Shown one piece after another: positions 1 through 4,556 of a DNA stretch of 4,556 nt (its first letter is position 1; every line of letters starts with the position of its first letter). The stretch is taken from IMG/VR virus record IMGVR_UViG_3300029847_000090. One strand, written 5' to 3'. The notes under the pieces were generated by a model. It worked only from the letters and a program-made list of their open reading frames with translations. It did not search any database and was not told the origin of the DNA. The position numbers and the translations under genes are program-made. The stretch comes from a virus. Lineage: Duplodnaviria > Heunggongvirae > Uroviricota > Caudoviricetes.

Positions 1-160
1 CGTAGGGTGTGCCGTCCGGGGCTTTCTGTGCCATCACCCGACGCTGCTGACTCTGCCGCAGACGCTTCGCCAGCTCTGCACTCAGCCGCCGACGCCCTGA
101 CGGTGACAGCGACTCAATAAGTCCGGTCAGCCGGTCTTCAAAACGCTTAAACTCATTCAT
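1..160 (-). CDS. S: Tail completion / virion morphogenesis protein gpS, 5' part only (C-terminus lies beyond window start)
   Basis: ATG at 160..158 (minus). Hand translation of 160->1 gives MNEFKRFEDRLTGLIESLSPSGRRRLSAELAKRLRQSQQRRVMAQKAPDGTPY with no stop before the window edge. Start overlaps the end of R by 8 nt (ATGAATGA). Position immediately after R matches P2 order; I recognise the N-terminus as P2 gpS-like. Confidence 0.8.
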   Translation of the reverse strand, partial: MNEFKRFEDRLTGLIESLSPSGRRRLSAELAKRLRQSQQRRVMAQKAPDGTPY

Positions 161-620
161 CCCACTTACTCACCAGTTCGCCATTGATATAAAGCTCCAT
201 CGGGCGGGTGACCGGCTCCGGCGGCGGGGGTTCCGGGATATTCTTCACATGCAGTGCGCCGTCGACCTCACTGACCAGCGTGCGCTCGGTCAGCATCAGG
301 CTGATGCTGACATCAAAGCTGCTGTCATTGTTGATGTCTGCATAAAACGTGAAGCCCTTTTTCTGGCCTTCGTCGGTGGTCATGATGTCTGGCTGATTTT
401 CCCGCAGCCACGCCAGCACCGGCACAATGAGCAGGTCAAAATCACCGGTAAAGTCGGTCACAATCACATTGAGCGTGTAACGCTTTTCGAATGACATAGA
501 CGTCGCCAGTGTGGAGGCAATACTCCCGTTATCCACGAATATCCGCAGCATCTCGGGACTGGTTTTCAGCACCGTGACGGCGTCAGTCAGCGCCCTGCGC
601 AGGCTGTCGGGTTTGAGCAT
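153..620 (-). CDS. R: Tail completion protein gpR (155 aa)
   Basis: ORF 153..620 (-), ATG at 620..618 with AGGA about 8 nt upstream. Length of 155 aa and position after the spanin genes match P2 gpR. Confidence 0.85.
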   Translation of the reverse strand: MLKPDSLRRALTDAVTVLKTSPEMLRIFVDNGSIASTLATSMSFEKRYTLNVIVTDFTGDFDLLIVPVLAWLRENQPDIMTTDEGQKKGFTFYADINNDSSFDVSISLMLTERTLVSEVDGALHVKNIPEPPPPEPVTRPMELYINGELVSKWDE

Positions 621-873
621 CGTTTTCGTCCTGACAGTGTTTAATCATTTTTACCTGGNNNNNNNNNNNNNNCAGCGCGTTCTCAAGCTGCCGGATATCA
701 GCACTTAAATCGCCGTTCGTCTGCGGGTCACTGCCCGGCATCGGGCAAAGGCTCACTTTCGGGCAGGCGTTGGCGACAATCACTGGCGTCGGTGCAGGCC
801 GGACGCTGGTGCAACCGGCGCACAACATCAGGCAGGTCAGCGCCGTACCAGCGGCGAAAATCTTCGTTTTCAT
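583..873 (-). CDS. lysC: LysC, Rz1-like outer-membrane lipoprotein spanin (o-spanin); reading frame crosses a 14-N gap
   Basis: ATG at 873..871 with GAGG about 8 nt upstream, in the +1 frame inside lysB. N-terminus MKTKIFAAGTALTCLMLCAGCTSVRPAPTPVIV has a signal peptide, a lipobox-like LCAGC and a proline-rich segment typical of Rz1-type proteins. With the Ns counted as real bases, 873..583 is 291 nt (96 aa plus stop), matching my recollection of P2 LysC length. The 3' end is uncertain because of the gap at 659..672. Confidence 0.6.
   Translation of the reverse strand: MKTKIFAAGTALTCLMLCAGCTSVRPAPTPVIVANACPKVSLCPMPGSDPQTNGDLSADIRQLENALXXXXXQVKMIKHCQDENDAQTRQPAQGAD
659..672. other. Run of 14 N (assembly gap or masked bases)
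   Basis: Literal n characters at 659..672 in the sequence. Confidence 0.99.
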
Positions 874-1153
874 TGAGTAACCTCGTGATGGTTTTCTCGC
901 GCTGTGCTTCACGCTTCGCGGCGTTCTCCAGTTCCTGACGCAGTACCATCTGCGCCAGCTCGTTTTTGTCTGCTCTGGTGAGGGCAACATGAAGCTGATT
1001 TTTCAGCATGGTGATGGTCGTCTGCTGCCCGCTGGCGACGTTGTTCGCCCTGTCCAGCGAGGCGCGCAGGCTGGCATTTTTATGTTTCACCAGAAACAGC
1101 CCCGCCACCGCCAGCGATAACAACACAACCAGTACAATCATCAGCTTTGACAT
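728..1153 (-). CDS. lysB: LysB, Rz-like inner-membrane spanin (i-spanin), 141 aa
   Basis: ATG at 1153..1151. N-terminal transmembrane segment MSKLMIVLVVLLSLAVAGLFLV followed by a charged, coiled-coil-like region (ELENAAKREAQREKTITRLLNENEDFRRW). Start overlaps the end of lysA by 13 nt. Length and position match P2 LysB. Confidence 0.85.
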   Translation of the reverse strand: MSKLMIVLVVLLSLAVAGLFLVKHKNASLRASLDRANNVASGQQTTITMLKNQLHVALTRADKNELAQMVLRQELENAAKREAQREKTITRLLNENEDFRRWYGADLPDVVRRLHQRPACTDASDCRQRLPESEPLPDAGQ

Positions 1154-1562
1154 GGTTCCCGCCCCTCAAAACGCTGACGGCAGGCCGTACGTATCAGCCG
1201 GAAGAACACCGACGCCACGAGGTAAATCAGCGCAGTAAAAATCCACCCGGCAGCGACCAGCGAGATAAACGTCGCCACCATCACCACCAGAGCCGCCGTC
1301 TGCGCCACGGCACCGGCTGCAAAAACAGCGACGTGACAATCTTCACGGCCAGCGATTCCGGCGGCAGCTCCCGCCCGTAGCGTTCCAGCACATACTCCGT
1401 GGCATACACGCCGACACCACCGGCAACCACACAGATAACCGTCGCCAGAATCGCCCAGGTGGCGACAAAACTGACGGCCACGCTCTGCGGGTAAATCAGG
1501 GACAGTGCCAGCATCAGCGCCAGCGACACGTTCAGCATCAGTGAAAGGGATAATTTCTTCAT
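1141..1562 (-). pseudogene. lysA: LysA (lysis-timing membrane protein), split across two reading frames as assembled; true pseudogene or sequencing error
   Basis: ATG at 1562..1560 with GGAG about 9 nt upstream, directly after the K stop. The 93-aa ORF 1281..1562 encodes two hydrophobic helices, then stops at 1283..1281. The hydrophobic C-terminal part (VAVFAAGAVAQTAALVVMVATFISLVAAGWIFTALIYLVASVFF...) continues in another frame, ending at the stop 1143..1141. The span 1141..1562 is 422 nt, not a multiple of 3. Restoring one base would give a roughly 140-aa four-helix protein of LysA size. Confidence 0.6.
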
Positions 1563-1576
1563 GGTGTTTACTCCGT

Positions 1577-2074
1577 TTAAGCCGGTACGCCGCCGGCGGT
1601 ACGCCAGACGGTGACCAGTTTTTCCAGTGAATGCTCACGCTGACCGTAACCGGCTCCCGGCAGGGACGCCCAGATATTGCGACAGCGTGAAATGGCGCGC
1701 TCAATACGTCCCGCCCGGATGTCATCCAGCGCACCGCGTTCGCGGATCAACTGAATGGCGAGTCTGTCCTGTGACAACGGACTGAAATCCGGCAGGGCAA
1801 GCTGTTTGCGGTAGTGCGGCCAGAACAGGTAAAGCTGCTGATAGCGACCGGAGGCCGTGGACTTTTCACCGCGACGGTTAAACACCTTCGCCGGTCGGCC
1901 ATGCGCGAACGGGTGGTCACTGTAGTCGGTGAAGATTTCCGGCTTTCCGTCCAGTCCGGTGACTATCACGTCATAGCCCCGGTTTTTCGTCAGCGGATGA
2001 TTCGCCGTCCCTTCGGACACGGCCAGCATGTCGAGAAAGGCAGCGATATTCTGATGCGTGTTAATTACCGGCAT
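1577..2074 (-). CDS. K: Endolysin (phage lysozyme) gpK, 165 aa
   Basis: ORF 1577..2074 (-), ATG at 2074..2072 overlapping the Y stop as TAATG. I recognise the sequence (MPVINTHQNIAAFLDMLAVSEGT...) as P2 gpK-like lysozyme. Sits in the holin-endolysin-LysA-LysB/C lysis cassette. Confidence 0.9.
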   Translation of the reverse strand: MPVINTHQNIAAFLDMLAVSEGTANHPLTKNRGYDVIVTGLDGKPEIFTDYSDHPFAHGRPAKVFNRRGEKSTASGRYQQLYLFWPHYRKQLALPDFSPLSQDRLAIQLIRERGALDDIRAGRIERAISRCRNIWASLPGAGYGQREHSLEKLVTVWRTAGGVPA

Positions 2075-2355
2075 TACGGTTTCCCCCTGCCCTTAAAGCG
2101 GCGCTGAATGGCAATCTCAATCACCTGATAACCGGCGATACCCAGCATGGAGCCGATGCCGCACACCGCAGGCAGTGACAGGTCAGGAAACTGCACCAGA
2201 ACAACACCGGCAACCATCGAGACAAAACCACCGAGCAACATGCGCCCGATAAACAGACGCGGGGTGATGGGTTCACCACCGGCAAGCACCTTGCCGACAA
2301 CAATCAGCACCCCAATCATGAAAAGCGACAGGACGCTTTTTTCTTCTGCTGTCAT
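2074..2355 (-). CDS. Y: Holin gpY, 93 aa
   Basis: ORF 2074..2355 (-), ATG at 2355..2353 with GGGAG 6-10 nt upstream. Small protein with hydrophobic helices and a charged C-terminal tail (RRFKGRGKP). Immediately upstream of the endolysin, as in P2. Confidence 0.88.
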   Translation of the reverse strand: MTAEEKSVLSLFMIGVLIVVGKVLAGGEPITPRLFIGRMLLGGFVSMVAGVVLVQFPDLSLPAVCGIGSMLGIAGYQVIEIAIQRRFKGRGKP

Positions 2356-2358
2356 GCG

Positions 2359-2562
2359 TTACTCCCACAGATTGACAGTTTCAGCCACGGGCGCGGTCTG
2401 AACGTCGGGCAGTTCGACGGCGGTGCCGTGTGGCAGCACCGCACCCAGTTCAGCCAGTCCCGGATTTGCGGCGAGCACGGTCTCAACCACGCCCTCAGTG
2501 CGCCCGTAATACCGGACACAAATGGCGTCGAGCGTGTCGCCCTGTAGCGCAAAGGTCTTCAT
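2359..2562 (-). CDS. X: Tail protein gpX (67 aa, LysM-like)
   Basis: ATG at 2562..2560 overlapping the L stop by one base (TGATG). Protein MKTFALQGDTLDAICVRYYGRTEGVVETVLAANPGLAELGAVLPHGTAVELPDVQ... has a LysM-type GDTL...ANP motif. The 67-aa length matches P2 gpX. The 90-aa ORF in the track is an upstream extension with no support. Confidence 0.85.
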   Translation of the reverse strand: MKTFALQGDTLDAICVRYYGRTEGVVETVLAANPGLAELGAVLPHGTAVELPDVQTAPVAETVNLWE

Positions 2563-3071
2563 CAGATTTGACTCACGATGCAGCGCGGCTTGTCCTGGAT
2601 ACGCGCCACCGCCCAGCGCATATCCCGCCACAGTTCATCAATGGTGCTGTCAATGCTGTCGGCCTTCTTGTCGCCTTTCGCACTGGCATCCACGCCGCGA
2701 TAACGCTCATAAAGCGACGCGGTCGCCATCGCACACACGGCGCGCTCGTAGTAAAAAACTTTGATGCTTTCACCGTCGATGTCGTCCGCCGGAACGTCCG
2801 CCAGACGCGTAAAACCGGCGGCAATTTTCTGTTCGCGGTACTCGTACAGCTCCGCATTCGTCTCCGCCATGCCTGACTTGATGGCCTCACGCAGACGGGC
2901 GGGGGCGACGGTCTGCTCAAGGCGCATACGTTCCCGGACGCGCTTCGGGTCGATATCGGGAAAAAAGAACGTGTTTTTAATCACCGGCTCGTCGCCTGCC
3001 GGTTGCGGGATGACCACCGTACCCTCACCGGACACGGGAGCCTCCTTTCGCGGAATAATCAGCGTCATCAT
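2562..3071 (-). CDS. L: Head completion / stabilisation protein gpL (169 aa)
   Basis: ATG ATG at 3071..3066 with GAGG 6-9 nt upstream. Gives 169 aa (MMTLIIPRKEAPVSGEG...), matching P2 gpL length. The track's 189-aa version starts at a GTG at 3131 with no ribosome-binding site. Confidence 0.85.
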   Translation of the reverse strand: MMTLIIPRKEAPVSGEGTVVIPQPAGDEPVIKNTFFFPDIDPKRVRERMRLEQTVAPARLREAIKSGMAETNAELYEYREQKIAAGFTRLADVPADDIDGESIKVFYYERAVCAMATASLYERYRGVDASAKGDKKADSIDSTIDELWRDMRWAVARIQDKPRCIVSQI

Positions 3072-3170
3072 GACTACCTCTGAAAAGTCGGGCGGTGGAC
3101 GCCGGTGCAGTGTCAGGTGATTCACCCTCACTGACCGGCGTGCCGCCCTGGCGCGGGGCGCATTCGGTTG

Positions 3171-3914
3171 TTAACTGGCTTTCTTTTTCGGGCGTCCACG
3201 TTTTGCCGGTGTCACGCTCCGGGTCTTACGCGGGGCGCGGGTGACCGCTTTGGGCTGCGGCTCCGGCTTCGGTTTCAGCTCCCGCTCCAGTCGTTCAATC
3301 TCTTTTTTGACGCCTGCCTGACAGTCGAGCTGTGTCGCACGTTGCAGGTGAGCCAGCGCACCGGCGGCATCACCAGCGTCACGCAGAAACAGACCGGTGA
3401 TTTTGTGCAGCTTTGCGCGCACTTCATCAGGCATGTCAGCCGTGGCGGTCAGTTCAAGGGTCTCCGTCAGCAGGCGGATATCCACAGATTCACCGGCAGC
3501 GTGGGCACGCATGGCCGCGAGTGCGACCTCCTCGGTGAACATGTACGGCGGGGTGCGGCGGTGTTTACCCGGCATGGTCAGACCGTACTTCAGGGCATAA
3601 CGGGCAATCTCCAGCGCACCGGCAATATCGCCGGTATCCAGACGCCACAGCATGACCGTCATCAGAATGTCATCCTGTGCACCTTTGCCCTGCTCCAGCA
3701 CACCGTTCACCCACGGCAACCAGAACGGCAGCAGTTCGCGTTTTTTCGCGGCCTTCAGCTCTTTTGAATAAATCGCTTTCAGTGTGCGCTGGTCTGCGGC
3801 GAGCTTAACCAGCATCTGCTCATAGACAGTTGCATGTCGCAGCGGGGCGGCTTCCCGCTGCGCGGTCATCGCTGCCGAGACCCGCATCATGTGGCGCTGT
3901 GCGGGACTCGTCAT
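3171..3914 (-). CDS. M: Terminase small (endonuclease) subunit gpM, 247 aa
   Basis: ORF 3171..3914 (-), ATG at 3914..3912 with GGGAG about 9 nt upstream. Basic C-terminal tail (RKTRSVTPAKRGRPKKKAS). Length and position after the capsid gene match P2 gpM. Confidence 0.88.
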   Translation of the reverse strand: MTSPAQRHMMRVSAAMTAQREAAPLRHATVYEQMLVKLAADQRTLKAIYSKELKAAKKRELLPFWLPWVNGVLEQGKGAQDDILMTVMLWRLDTGDIAGALEIARYALKYGLTMPGKHRRTPPYMFTEEVALAAMRAHAAGESVDIRLLTETLELTATADMPDEVRAKLHKITGLFLRDAGDAAGALAHLQRATQLDCQAGVKKEIERLERELKPKPEPQPKAVTRAPRKTRSVTPAKRGRPKKKAS

Positions 3915-3917
3915 CGG

Positions 3918-4556
3918 TTACGCTCCCGGCTCTGCGGTCGCTTTAGCCGGTGTGGAGAAATCACCGACCTTAATTTTTTCCACCAGACAACCGGCGGCGT
4001 AGTCCTCCACCACGTAATCAATGTTCATTGACTCGTAGTTCTCCACGCGGTCGAGTTTCGGGTTTTCCTCAATCACGCGGCGATGGCTGTCATCCATGTA
4101 GTAGATGGACAGGTTTTCCAGCTTCGTGATGAGCATCGCATCCGCCGGGAAGTACGGGACGCGTACCGCCGGCAGGTTGCCGATGCGTTTCTGGCTGATG
4201 ATGACGTCAGCGGCCAGCATTTCGCTGTTGTCCTGCTCCTTGTTGACGATGGGGAAATACTTGTCCGCCAGTAGCTGACGTCCCACAATCACCACAAGGT
4301 CAGGGTCTTCCTGATACCACGGTTCAATCAGGTTGTTGGTTGCATCCATCACCAGTGCATCGAGGCTGGCATAATCACCGCCCTTACCCACGCGGATGAC
4401 CTCAGAGGTGGTGCTGCCTTCCTCGTCAGTGACCTTGCTCATCACGCGAGCCGGGGCTTCATTGCGGTATTTCTGCAGCCAGCCGACCGCCACATCCTGC
4501 AGCATCGGGTTACTGCTGCGGTCAGAGGTTTCGACACGCTTCACACCGTTAAAACC
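3918..4556 (-). CDS. N: Major capsid protein gpN, 3' part only (N-terminus lies beyond window end)
   Basis: Frame is open from the window edge to the stop at 3920..3918. The 'M' at 4544 in the track is an internal GTG valine; the four codons above it (GFNG) are in frame. Sequence recognised as P2-family major capsid C-terminal region. Stop is 3 nt upstream of the M start. Confidence 0.88.
   Translation of the reverse strand, partial: GFNGVKRVETSDRSSNPMLQDVAVGWLQKYRNEAPARVMSKVTDEEGSTTSEVIRVGKGGDYASLDALVMDATNNLIEPWYQEDPDLVVIVGRQLLADKYFPIVNKEQDNSEMLAADVIISQKRIGNLPAVRVPYFPADAMLITKLENLSIYYMDDSHRRVIEENPKLDRVENYESMNIDYVVEDYAAGCLVEKIKVGDFSTPAKATAEPGA

What the first reader, a model, noticed from the sequence alone, without database searches (positions are those of the whole stretch)
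1284..1345. lysA is split by an apparent 1-nt frameshift, probably at a T5 run
LysA is the only gene in the operon that is not intact. Its N-terminal half (two helices) stops at 1283..1281, while the C-terminal half (two more helices) is in another frame ending at 1143..1141. The hydrophobicity switch between frames places the shift around 1290..1345; the minus-strand TTTTT run (plus 1321..1325, aaaaa) is the obvious candidate. Adding one T there gives a continuous protein ...LAVKIVTSLFFAAGAVAQTAALVVMVATFISLV... This is either a homopolymer sequencing error (the assembly also carries Ns) or a real lysis-timing mutation in a prophage.
Basis: partly seen in the sequence, partly recalled or inferred. 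Interest (0 to 1): 0.45.

Follow-up and report, generated by a model that had tools for sequence, protein, structure and literature searches.

The report
Four-base deletion truncating phage antiholin LysA

Summary
The split is real in the sequence, but the proposed cause is wrong. On the minus strand the window holds the P2-type late genes N-M-L-X-Y-K-lysA-lysB-lysC-R-S. The lysA 5' ORF (1562..1281) ends at a TGA after 93 codons, and the rest of LysA continues in another frame to the stop at 1143..1141.

Alignment to an E. coli prophage, phages fiAA91-ss and P2, and a near-identical metagenome scaffold shows one indel in 4.5 kb. It is a 4-nt deletion (CGGG; reference GCGCAGA[CGGG]CGGCGGCT) at window 1295-1299. 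The T5 run (1321-1325) is T5 in intact homologues too.

The deletion is private:
- 0 of 1,665 copies in complete E. coli genomes carry it.
- Two junction patterns have 0 hits in three large collections.
- The truncated product is recorded once, on a 4,556-bp JGI/IMG contig, which is the window itself.

The product keeps residues 1-89 (TM1-2) plus RLWW. It loses the 39-residue hydrophobic segment (TM3-4) and the basic tail.

LysA is the non-essential antiholin of holin Y, so the predicted effect is earlier lysis. Other lysA alleles show indels in the same tract and in the T-run, so this is ordinary decay. Reads are needed to exclude an artefact.

The parts
1281..1562 (-). lysA 5' ORF: 93 codons plus stop. 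Residues 1-89 are native LysA (TM1, TM2 and loop), followed by the out-of-frame tail RLWW and TGA.
   Evidence: ORF list. NF038378 positions 1-82 of 124, E=1.6e-19. phrog_162 positions 1-90 of 141. Identical prefix of 89 residues to the intact allele.
1295..1299 (-). Deletion junction. Four bases (CGGG, or equivalently GGGC, GGCG or GCGG) are missing between minus-strand ...GCGCAGA and CGGCGGCT... Placement is ambiguous because of the CGG direct repeat.
   Evidence: Alignments to L001, L002, L023 and L024. It is the only indel in the window.
1141..1296 (-). lysA 3' remnant in the shifted frame. It encodes AALVVMVATFISLVAAGWIFTALIYLVASVFFRLIRTACRQRFEGREPCQS and a stop, that is TM3-TM4 plus the basic C-terminal tail.
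   Evidence: Translation. NF038378 positions 84-124 of 124, E=2.1e-11. phrog_162 positions 91-141 of 141.
1321..1325 (-). It is intact and is not the lesion here.
   Evidence: It is TTTTT in the window and in intact lysA of E. coli 4/1-1, fiAA91-ss, P2 and L024. It is T4 only in the unrelated frameshift allele in L027 and L028.
1279..1283 (-). UGAUG. The stop of the truncated ORF (1283..1281) overlaps an ATG (1281..1279, Met96 of intact LysA) in the 3' frame. This is a possible termination-reinitiation site for a 46-aa C-terminal peptide (inference only).
   Evidence: Sequence, translation from 1281, Met positions.
728..1153 (-). lysB (Rz-like spanin), 141 aa and intact. Its ATG (1153..1151) normally overlaps the lysA end and now lies 128 nt beyond the premature stop.
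   Evidence: ORF list. Same length and position as the annotated lysB in L001.
1577..2074 (-). K endolysin, 165 aa, intact (context).
   Evidence: Exact protein present in very many assemblies. Annotation in L001 and P2.
2074..2355 (-). Y holin, 93 aa, intact. It is the presumed target of LysA (context).
   Evidence: ORF list. PF04550 on the syntenic gene. P2 annotation.

Best explanation
The window is a fragment of a P2-like (Peduovirus) phage late operon. Its lysA gene carries a genuine, private 4-bp deletion.

Origin of the deletion (inferred): slipped-strand mispairing between two CGG repeats 4 nt apart in the tract ACGGGCGGCGGCT.

Effect on the protein (shown): the reading frame changes after codon 89 and terminates four codons later. 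The product is a 93-aa protein that keeps the first two transmembrane helices and the loop. It lacks the 39-residue hydrophobic segment (TM3-TM4) and the basic C-terminal tail.

Effect on the phage (inferred): LysA is the four-TMD antiholin that delays triggering of the class I holin Y, and it is non-essential. The most likely consequence is a phage that still lyses and propagates but triggers lysis earlier, with a smaller burst. The deletion itself and the truncation are shown. Its authenticity and the phenotype are inferred.
For: Location and uniqueness of the indel:
- Single 4-nt gap at 1298/1299 against an E. coli prophage, fiAA91-ss, P2 and L024.
- The rest of the window has no other indel. 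It is base-for-base identical to metagenome scaffold L024 across 882..3440, about 2.56 kb spanning lysA. This argues against an indel-prone sequencing technology and for a very recent event.

Type of event:
- A clean 4-nt loss flanked by CGG microhomology is the signature of replication slippage. It is not a homopolymer miscall (direct reading).
- The same roughly 40-nt stretch is an indel hot spot in other assemblies. In-frame alleles of 137-147 aa occur. A +1 frameshift class (133 aa) is present in a complete genome (L026). A T5-to-T4 allele is seen in two independent datasets (L027, L028).

Function:
- The P2 record calls lysA 'nonessential; affects timing of lysis'.
- LysA is described as an antiholin with four TM helices in PMC3091744 and in PMC11413866, citing To et al. 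2013.
- Hydropathy places the lost segment at residues 89-127.
Against: - The allele is seen exactly once. The truncated product is recorded on one JGI/IMG contig of 4,556 bp, so there is no independent confirmation.
- It is absent from 1,665 lysA copies in 1,457 complete E. coli genomes.
- Two junction patterns give no hit in the genome, metagenome or viral collections.
- The contig is a short metagenome scaffold with a 14-N gap, and no reads are available.
- No experiment shows that the 93-aa product lacks antiholin activity. The primary papers (Ziermann 1994; To 2013) could not be read here.
Confidence: 0.63

Rival explanations
1. Assembly or sequencing artefact. The phage population in the sample has an intact 141-codon lysA, and the 4-nt gap arose in consensus building of a low-coverage or strain-mixed metagenome scaffold.
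For: - The allele is known from this one 4,556-bp JGI/IMG contig only. It is absent everywhere else that was searched, while the undeleted tract is found in at least 120 viral contigs.
- The contig contains an N-run (659..672).
- The nearest relative, L024, is otherwise identical around the site.
Against: - It is the only indel in 4.5 kb.
- A 4-nt loss is not the usual error of homopolymer-prone platforms.
- The repeat is far shorter than assembler k-mers, so repeat collapse is unlikely.
- The tract is demonstrably indel-prone in isolate genomes.
Confidence: 0.32
2. Real deletion, but lysA function is retained as a split gene. Ribosomes that terminate at UGA (1283..1281) reinitiate at the overlapping AUG (1281..1279). 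This would make a 46-aa peptide with TM3-TM4 that associates with the 93-aa N-terminal half to rebuild an antiholin.
For: The UGAUG overlap is in the correct frame, and the downstream ORF encodes exactly residues 96-141 of LysA. Stop-start overlaps of this type support translational coupling in E. coli operons (general knowledge).
Against: - The overlap is a by-product of the native sequence GTGGTGATGG and exists in every wild-type gene.
- No good Shine-Dalgarno sequence precedes the ATG.
- Six residues (90-95) are lost.
- There is no evidence that LysA halves complement each other.
- No population support exists, because the allele is private.
Confidence: 0.04
3. Programmed ribosomal frameshifting (recoding) restores full-length LysA from the two frames.
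For: A -1 shift before the TGA would restore the frame. P2-like phages do use a TTTTTTG -1 site in another gene pair, the tail chaperone (PMC3091744).
Against: - There is no X XXY YYZ heptamer between the deletion and the stop (AGA CGG CGG CTC TGG TGG TGA).
- The upstream G TTT TTG has only five T and is present in all single-ORF lysA genes.
- The two-frame arrangement is not conserved in any relative.
Confidence: 0.01

Closest known systems
Bacteriophage P2 LysA (NP_046766.1; NCBIfam NF038378 'DNZ54_00345 family', Pfam PF28015 LysA, phrog_162)
   Same: - Same position between K and lysB in the Y-K-lysA-lysB-lysC cassette.
- 94-95% amino-acid identity in both halves.
- Same start, same stop and same overlap with lysB.
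   Different: The ORF is interrupted by a 4-nt deletion after codon 89. The encoded product is 93 aa instead of 141 aa and lacks TM3-TM4 and the C-terminal tail.
Other frameshifted lysA alleles in E. coli assemblies: the 94-aa T5-to-T4 allele (P0076; L027, L028) and the 133-aa +1 class (P0018, P0049; L026)
   Same: They are frameshifts within the same 40-nt segment of lysA. The T4 allele runs into the same TGA and ends ...RRLWW, like the window.
   Different: They are independent events at different bases: T-run -1, and a +1 T after GGC. The window's -4 junction is found nowhere else.
In-frame length variants of LysA (137-147 aa; VVM 9-nt repeat in 1-3 copies; 100-aa and 109-aa internal deletions)
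   Same: They affect the same GC-rich, repeat-rich mid-gene tract and presumably share the same slippage mechanism.
   Different: They preserve the frame and the C-terminal hydrophobic segment, except for the large deletions. The window's allele does not.
Lambda S107 and T4 RI antiholins
   Same: They are functional analogues only: membrane proteins that delay holin triggering (PMC11413866).
   Different: They are unrelated in sequence and architecture. S107 is an alternative start of the holin gene, and RI has a periplasmic domain. No membership is claimed.

Membership tests
P2 LysA / DNZ54_00345 family (NF038378, PF28015, phrog_162) | Significant match to the family profile over its whole length | tested here: met
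   The 5' product matches positions 1-82 of 124 (70.3 bits, cut-off 40). The 3' frame matches positions 84-124 of 124 (44.1 bits). phrog_162 is matched at 1-90 and 91-141 of 141. The match is therefore complete but spread over two frames.
P2 LysA / DNZ54_00345 family (NF038378, PF28015, phrog_162) | Synteny: directly downstream of endolysin K, with the end overlapping the start of lysB, in the Y-K-lysA-lysB-lysC cassette | tested here: met
   Window gene order matches the annotated order in E. coli 4/1-1, fiAA91-ss and P2.
P2 LysA / DNZ54_00345 family (NF038378, PF28015, phrog_162) | A single uninterrupted ORF of about 137-147 codons that encodes four hydrophobic helices | tested here: not met
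   The ORF stops after 93 codons. Hydropathy shows that TM1 and TM2 (about residues 4-26 and 26-56) are retained. The hydrophobic segment at 89-127 is out of frame. The locus is thus a disrupted member, not an intact one.
P2 LysA / DNZ54_00345 family (NF038378, PF28015, phrog_162) | Antiholin activity (delays Y-dependent lysis) | not testable with these tools
   Known for P2 LysA from the literature (PMC3091744; PMC11413866; P2 record note).
Programmed -1 ribosomal frameshift sites | A slippery heptamer X XXY YYZ in the zero frame upstream of the stop, and conservation of the two-frame arrangement in relatives | tested here: not met
   There is no heptamer in AGA CGG CGG CTC TGG TGG TGA. All 22 fetched relatives that span lysA intact have one ORF. 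All 1,665 E. coli copies lack this junction.
   T5 is present in the window and in the intact genes.

The most novel reading that the evidence does not exclude
The lysA mid-gene segment contains a T5 run, the CGGGCGGCGG tract and a GTGGTGATG tandem repeat. It might act as a hypermutable 'contingency' tract that repeatedly switches or tunes the antiholin. That would diversify lysis timing within P2-like phage populations, and the window's deletion would be one 'off' state. The evidence for this is only that many independent in-frame and out-of-frame indels cluster there. Neutral decay of a dispensable gene, together with assembly errors, explains the same data.
Probability: 0.05. Interest if true: 0.5.

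Novelty: already known. Interest (0 to 1): 0.1.

Why it matters
It matters little. lysA is a well-known, dispensable lysis-timing gene of P2-like phages. Truncated alleles are already present in public assemblies, and this one is a singleton on a short metagenome contig.

The practical value is in corrected annotation:
- The lesion is a 4-nt deletion at 1295-1299, not a T-run error.
- The locus should be called a lysA pseudogene or frameshifted lysA.
- The ancestral protein is ...PWRRRAAALVVMV...

If the deletion is real, the phage would be a natural antiholin mutant expected to lyse early. The clustering of indels in this segment across E. coli prophages is a minor population-level curiosity.

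Tried and rejected
- **T5-run hypothesis.** Rejected by alignment.
- **Other carriers of the deletion.** A 70-nt junction query against 5,426 complete E. coli genomes gave no copy above 94.6% identity, meaning all copies have the 4 extra bases. A 32-mer and a 22-mer junction pattern gave 0 hits in genome contigs, metagenome contigs and viral contigs. The positive control with the undeleted tract gave at least 120 viral contigs.
- **Exact look-up of the 93-aa product.** The gene-position index returned nothing. The cluster table did find it, once, on a 4,556-bp JGI/IMG contig.
- **Local Pfam copy.** It lacks PF28015, so it gave no useful hit. NCBIfam and PHROGs were used instead.
- **Primary papers on LysA.** Ziermann et al. 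1994 and To et al. 2013 are not held. Functional statements rest on secondary citations and on the P2 GenBank note.
- **Programmed frameshifting.** Considered and rejected: there is no slippery site and no conservation.
- **Natural short LysA isoform.** Rejected, because the profiles and all relatives extend to about 141 aa.
- **Structure prediction.** Not run, because it would not bear on the question.

Full report
**What the window is.** The six-frame ORF list and similarity searches show that the minus strand carries part of the late operon of a P2-like phage (Peduovirus). The genes, in order:
- capsid N (partial, from 3918 to the window end)
- terminase small subunit M (3171..3914)
- L (2562..3071)
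- X (2359..2562)
- holin Y (2074..2355)
- endolysin K (1577..2074)
- lysA (1141..1562)
- lysB (728..1153)
- lysC (overlapping lysB and R; it contains the N-run)
- R (153..620)
- the start of S

The same order is annotated in E. coli 4/1-1 (L001), phage fiAA91-ss (L002) and P2 itself (L023). The best complete-genome matches are ST131-type E. coli prophages at 98.5% identity.

**Checking the observation.** The 5' lysA ORF runs 1562..1281 and encodes 93 aa ending ...QPVPWRRRRLWW*. The remaining LysA sequence (...AALVVMVATFISLVAAGWIF...EGREPCQS*) is in another frame and ends at 1143..1141. NCBIfam NF038378 matches the first piece over profile positions 1-82 and the second over 84-124 of 124. phrog_162 matches 1-90 and 91-141 of 141.

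**Where and what the lesion is.** A nucleotide alignment of the window with intact lysA genes shows a single 4-column gap. The references read GCGCAGA-CGGG-CGGCGGCTCTGG and the window reads GCGCAGA-CGGCGGCTCTGG.
- In window coordinates the junction lies between 1299 and 1298.
- Because of the CGG repeat, the missing four bases can equally be written CGGG, GGGC, GGCG or GCGG. The placement is therefore ambiguous within 1295..1299.
The site, the size and the reconstructed peptide (...SLFFAAGAVAQTAALVV...) are wrong.
- The ancestral sequence is ...SLFLQPVPWRRRAAALVVMVATF....

**Is anything else damaged?** BLAST of the whole window gives one gap (4 nt) and only substitutions otherwise, both against L001 (4,100 nt) and against L024 (4,556 nt).
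- The exact M, K and R proteins exist in other assemblies.
- The 14-N run (659..672) replaces exactly 14 bases. No length change is hidden there, although lysC cannot be fully verified.

**Is the allele shared?** No.
- A 70-nt query centred on the junction found 1,665 lysA copies in 1,457 of 5,426 complete E. coli genomes. The best identity was 94.6% (70 of 74), so all copies carry the four extra bases.
- Every listed phage record shows the same 4-nt length difference.
- A 32-mer and a 22-mer junction pattern gave no hit in genome contigs, metagenome contigs or viral contigs. The undeleted tract hit at least 120 viral contigs.
- The cluster table records the 93-aa product once, from JGI/IMG, on a contig of 4,556 bp. 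That is the length of the window, so the window is evidently an entire metagenome contig.
- The window's R protein is rare, occurring on only two other contigs. One of these, L024 (an ENA metagenome scaffold), is identical to the window at every base from 882 to 3440 except for the four missing bases. L024 encodes a normal 141-aa LysA.
- The event is therefore either very recent or artefactual.

**Real or artefact?** No reads are available, so this stays open.

For a real mutation:
- There is only one indel in 4.5 kb, so the data do not come from an indel-prone source.
- A 4-nt loss between CGG direct repeats is the classical signature of slippage. It is not a homopolymer miscall.
- The motif is too short to be collapsed by an assembler.
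- The same stretch is indel-prone in other genomes.

Evidence for that last point comes from the relatives of the 93-aa product and their sequences:
- In-frame variants of 137, 138, 139, 140, 141 (by far the largest clusters), 142, 144 and 147 aa. They differ in RRRAAAL and in the copy number of a VVM (GTGGTGATG) repeat.
- Internal in-frame deletions, giving 100 aa (9 contigs) and 109 aa (38 contigs).
- Frameshifts. One is a 133-aa class caused by one extra base just after the tract, seen in a complete genome (L026).

For an artefact: the allele is a singleton on a short, N-containing metagenome scaffold.

I put about 0.65 on a real deletion and about 0.32 on an artefact.

**Consequences (inferred).** The product retains native residues 1-89 and adds RLWW.
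- A 15-residue hydropathy scan places hydrophobic segments at about 4-26, 26-56 and 89-127.
- The truncation removes the whole last segment, which the literature counts as TM3 and TM4. It also removes the basic tail RLIRTACRQRFEGREPCQS.
- P2 LysA is annotated 'nonessential; affects timing of lysis'.
- It is described as a separately encoded antiholin with four TM domains that inhibits the holin and delays lysis (PMC3091744; PMC11413866 citing To et al. 2013).
- The committed prediction is loss or severe weakening of antiholin function. That would mean earlier triggering of holin Y and earlier lysis with a reduced burst, in an otherwise viable phage.
- lysB keeps its own GAGGGG Shine-Dalgarno-like sequence 8 nt upstream of its ATG. 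The premature stop 128 nt upstream is therefore unlikely to abolish spanin expression, although loss of coupling could lower it (inference).

**Alternatives considered.**
- The truncated ORF's stop overlaps an in-frame ATG of the 3' frame (UGAUG at 1283..1279). Reinitiation could therefore make a 46-aa peptide carrying TM3-TM4. This overlap exists in every wild-type gene as a by-product of GTGGTGATGG. Nothing suggests that split LysA works. I give it about 0.04.
- Programmed frameshifting is rejected. There is no slippery heptamer before the stop, and no relative conserves a two-frame lysA.

**Comparison with the known, and verdict.** This is a disrupted member of the P2 LysA family. Profile match and synteny are met, but the single intact ORF is not. 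Frameshifted and truncated lysA alleles are already present in public data, and the gene is dispensable. The finding is a correct detection of a broken gene with an incorrect diagnosis of the lesion, and biologically it is ordinary. The only mildly interesting by-product is the clustering of independent indels in a 40-nt segment of lysA across E. coli prophages. That could be neutral decay plus sequencing noise. Much less likely (about 5%), it could be a hypermutable tract that diversifies lysis timing.

Noticed in passing
window 659..672 (minus strand, inside lysC, 38-52 nt upstream of the R start): The 14-N run replaces exactly 14 bases (GCACGCTGTGCCAG in L024 and P2). It sits on the perfect hairpin CTGGCAC-GCT-GTGCCAG, which the P2 record annotates as 'putative transcription attenuator; O operon'. 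The gap is length-preserving, so it looks like masking or a hairpin-related assembly dropout rather than a scaffold join of unknown size.
   Followed up: partly
lysA mid-gene, window about 1270..1330, and homologues P0001-P0148: LysA is length-polymorphic across E. coli assemblies. In-frame alleles of 137-147 aa occur, with a 9-nt GTGGTGATG (VVM) repeat in 1-3 copies and variants of RRRAAAL. There are also 100-aa and 109-aa internal deletions and several independent frameshift classes.
   Followed up: partly
It gives a 94-aa LysA ending ...RRLWW at the same TGA.
   Followed up: yes
window 803..881, 3441..3528 and 4170..4341, compared with L024; window 56..311, compared with L001: Substitutions against the nearest relatives come in tight clusters separated by long identical stretches. 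This indicates recombinational mosaicism among P2-like phages rather than uniform divergence.
   Followed up: no
database annotation of lysA (phrog_162; RefSeq NC_001895, NC_022750 and others): LysA, a small multi-TM antiholin, is labelled 'endolysin' in PHROGs and in several RefSeq phage records. This is probably a propagated misannotation.
   Followed up: no
window 1141..1734 (minus strand): A 197-codon GTG-initiated ORF is listed here. It is only the lysA 3' frame running back, without a stop, through the lysA 5' part and into K. It is not a gene.
   Followed up: yes
whole window: The only record of the truncated protein is a JGI/IMG contig of 4,556 bp, the same length as the window. The window is therefore probably a complete metagenome contig without host flanks, and whether it is a prophage or a free phage genome cannot be told.
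   Followed up: partly
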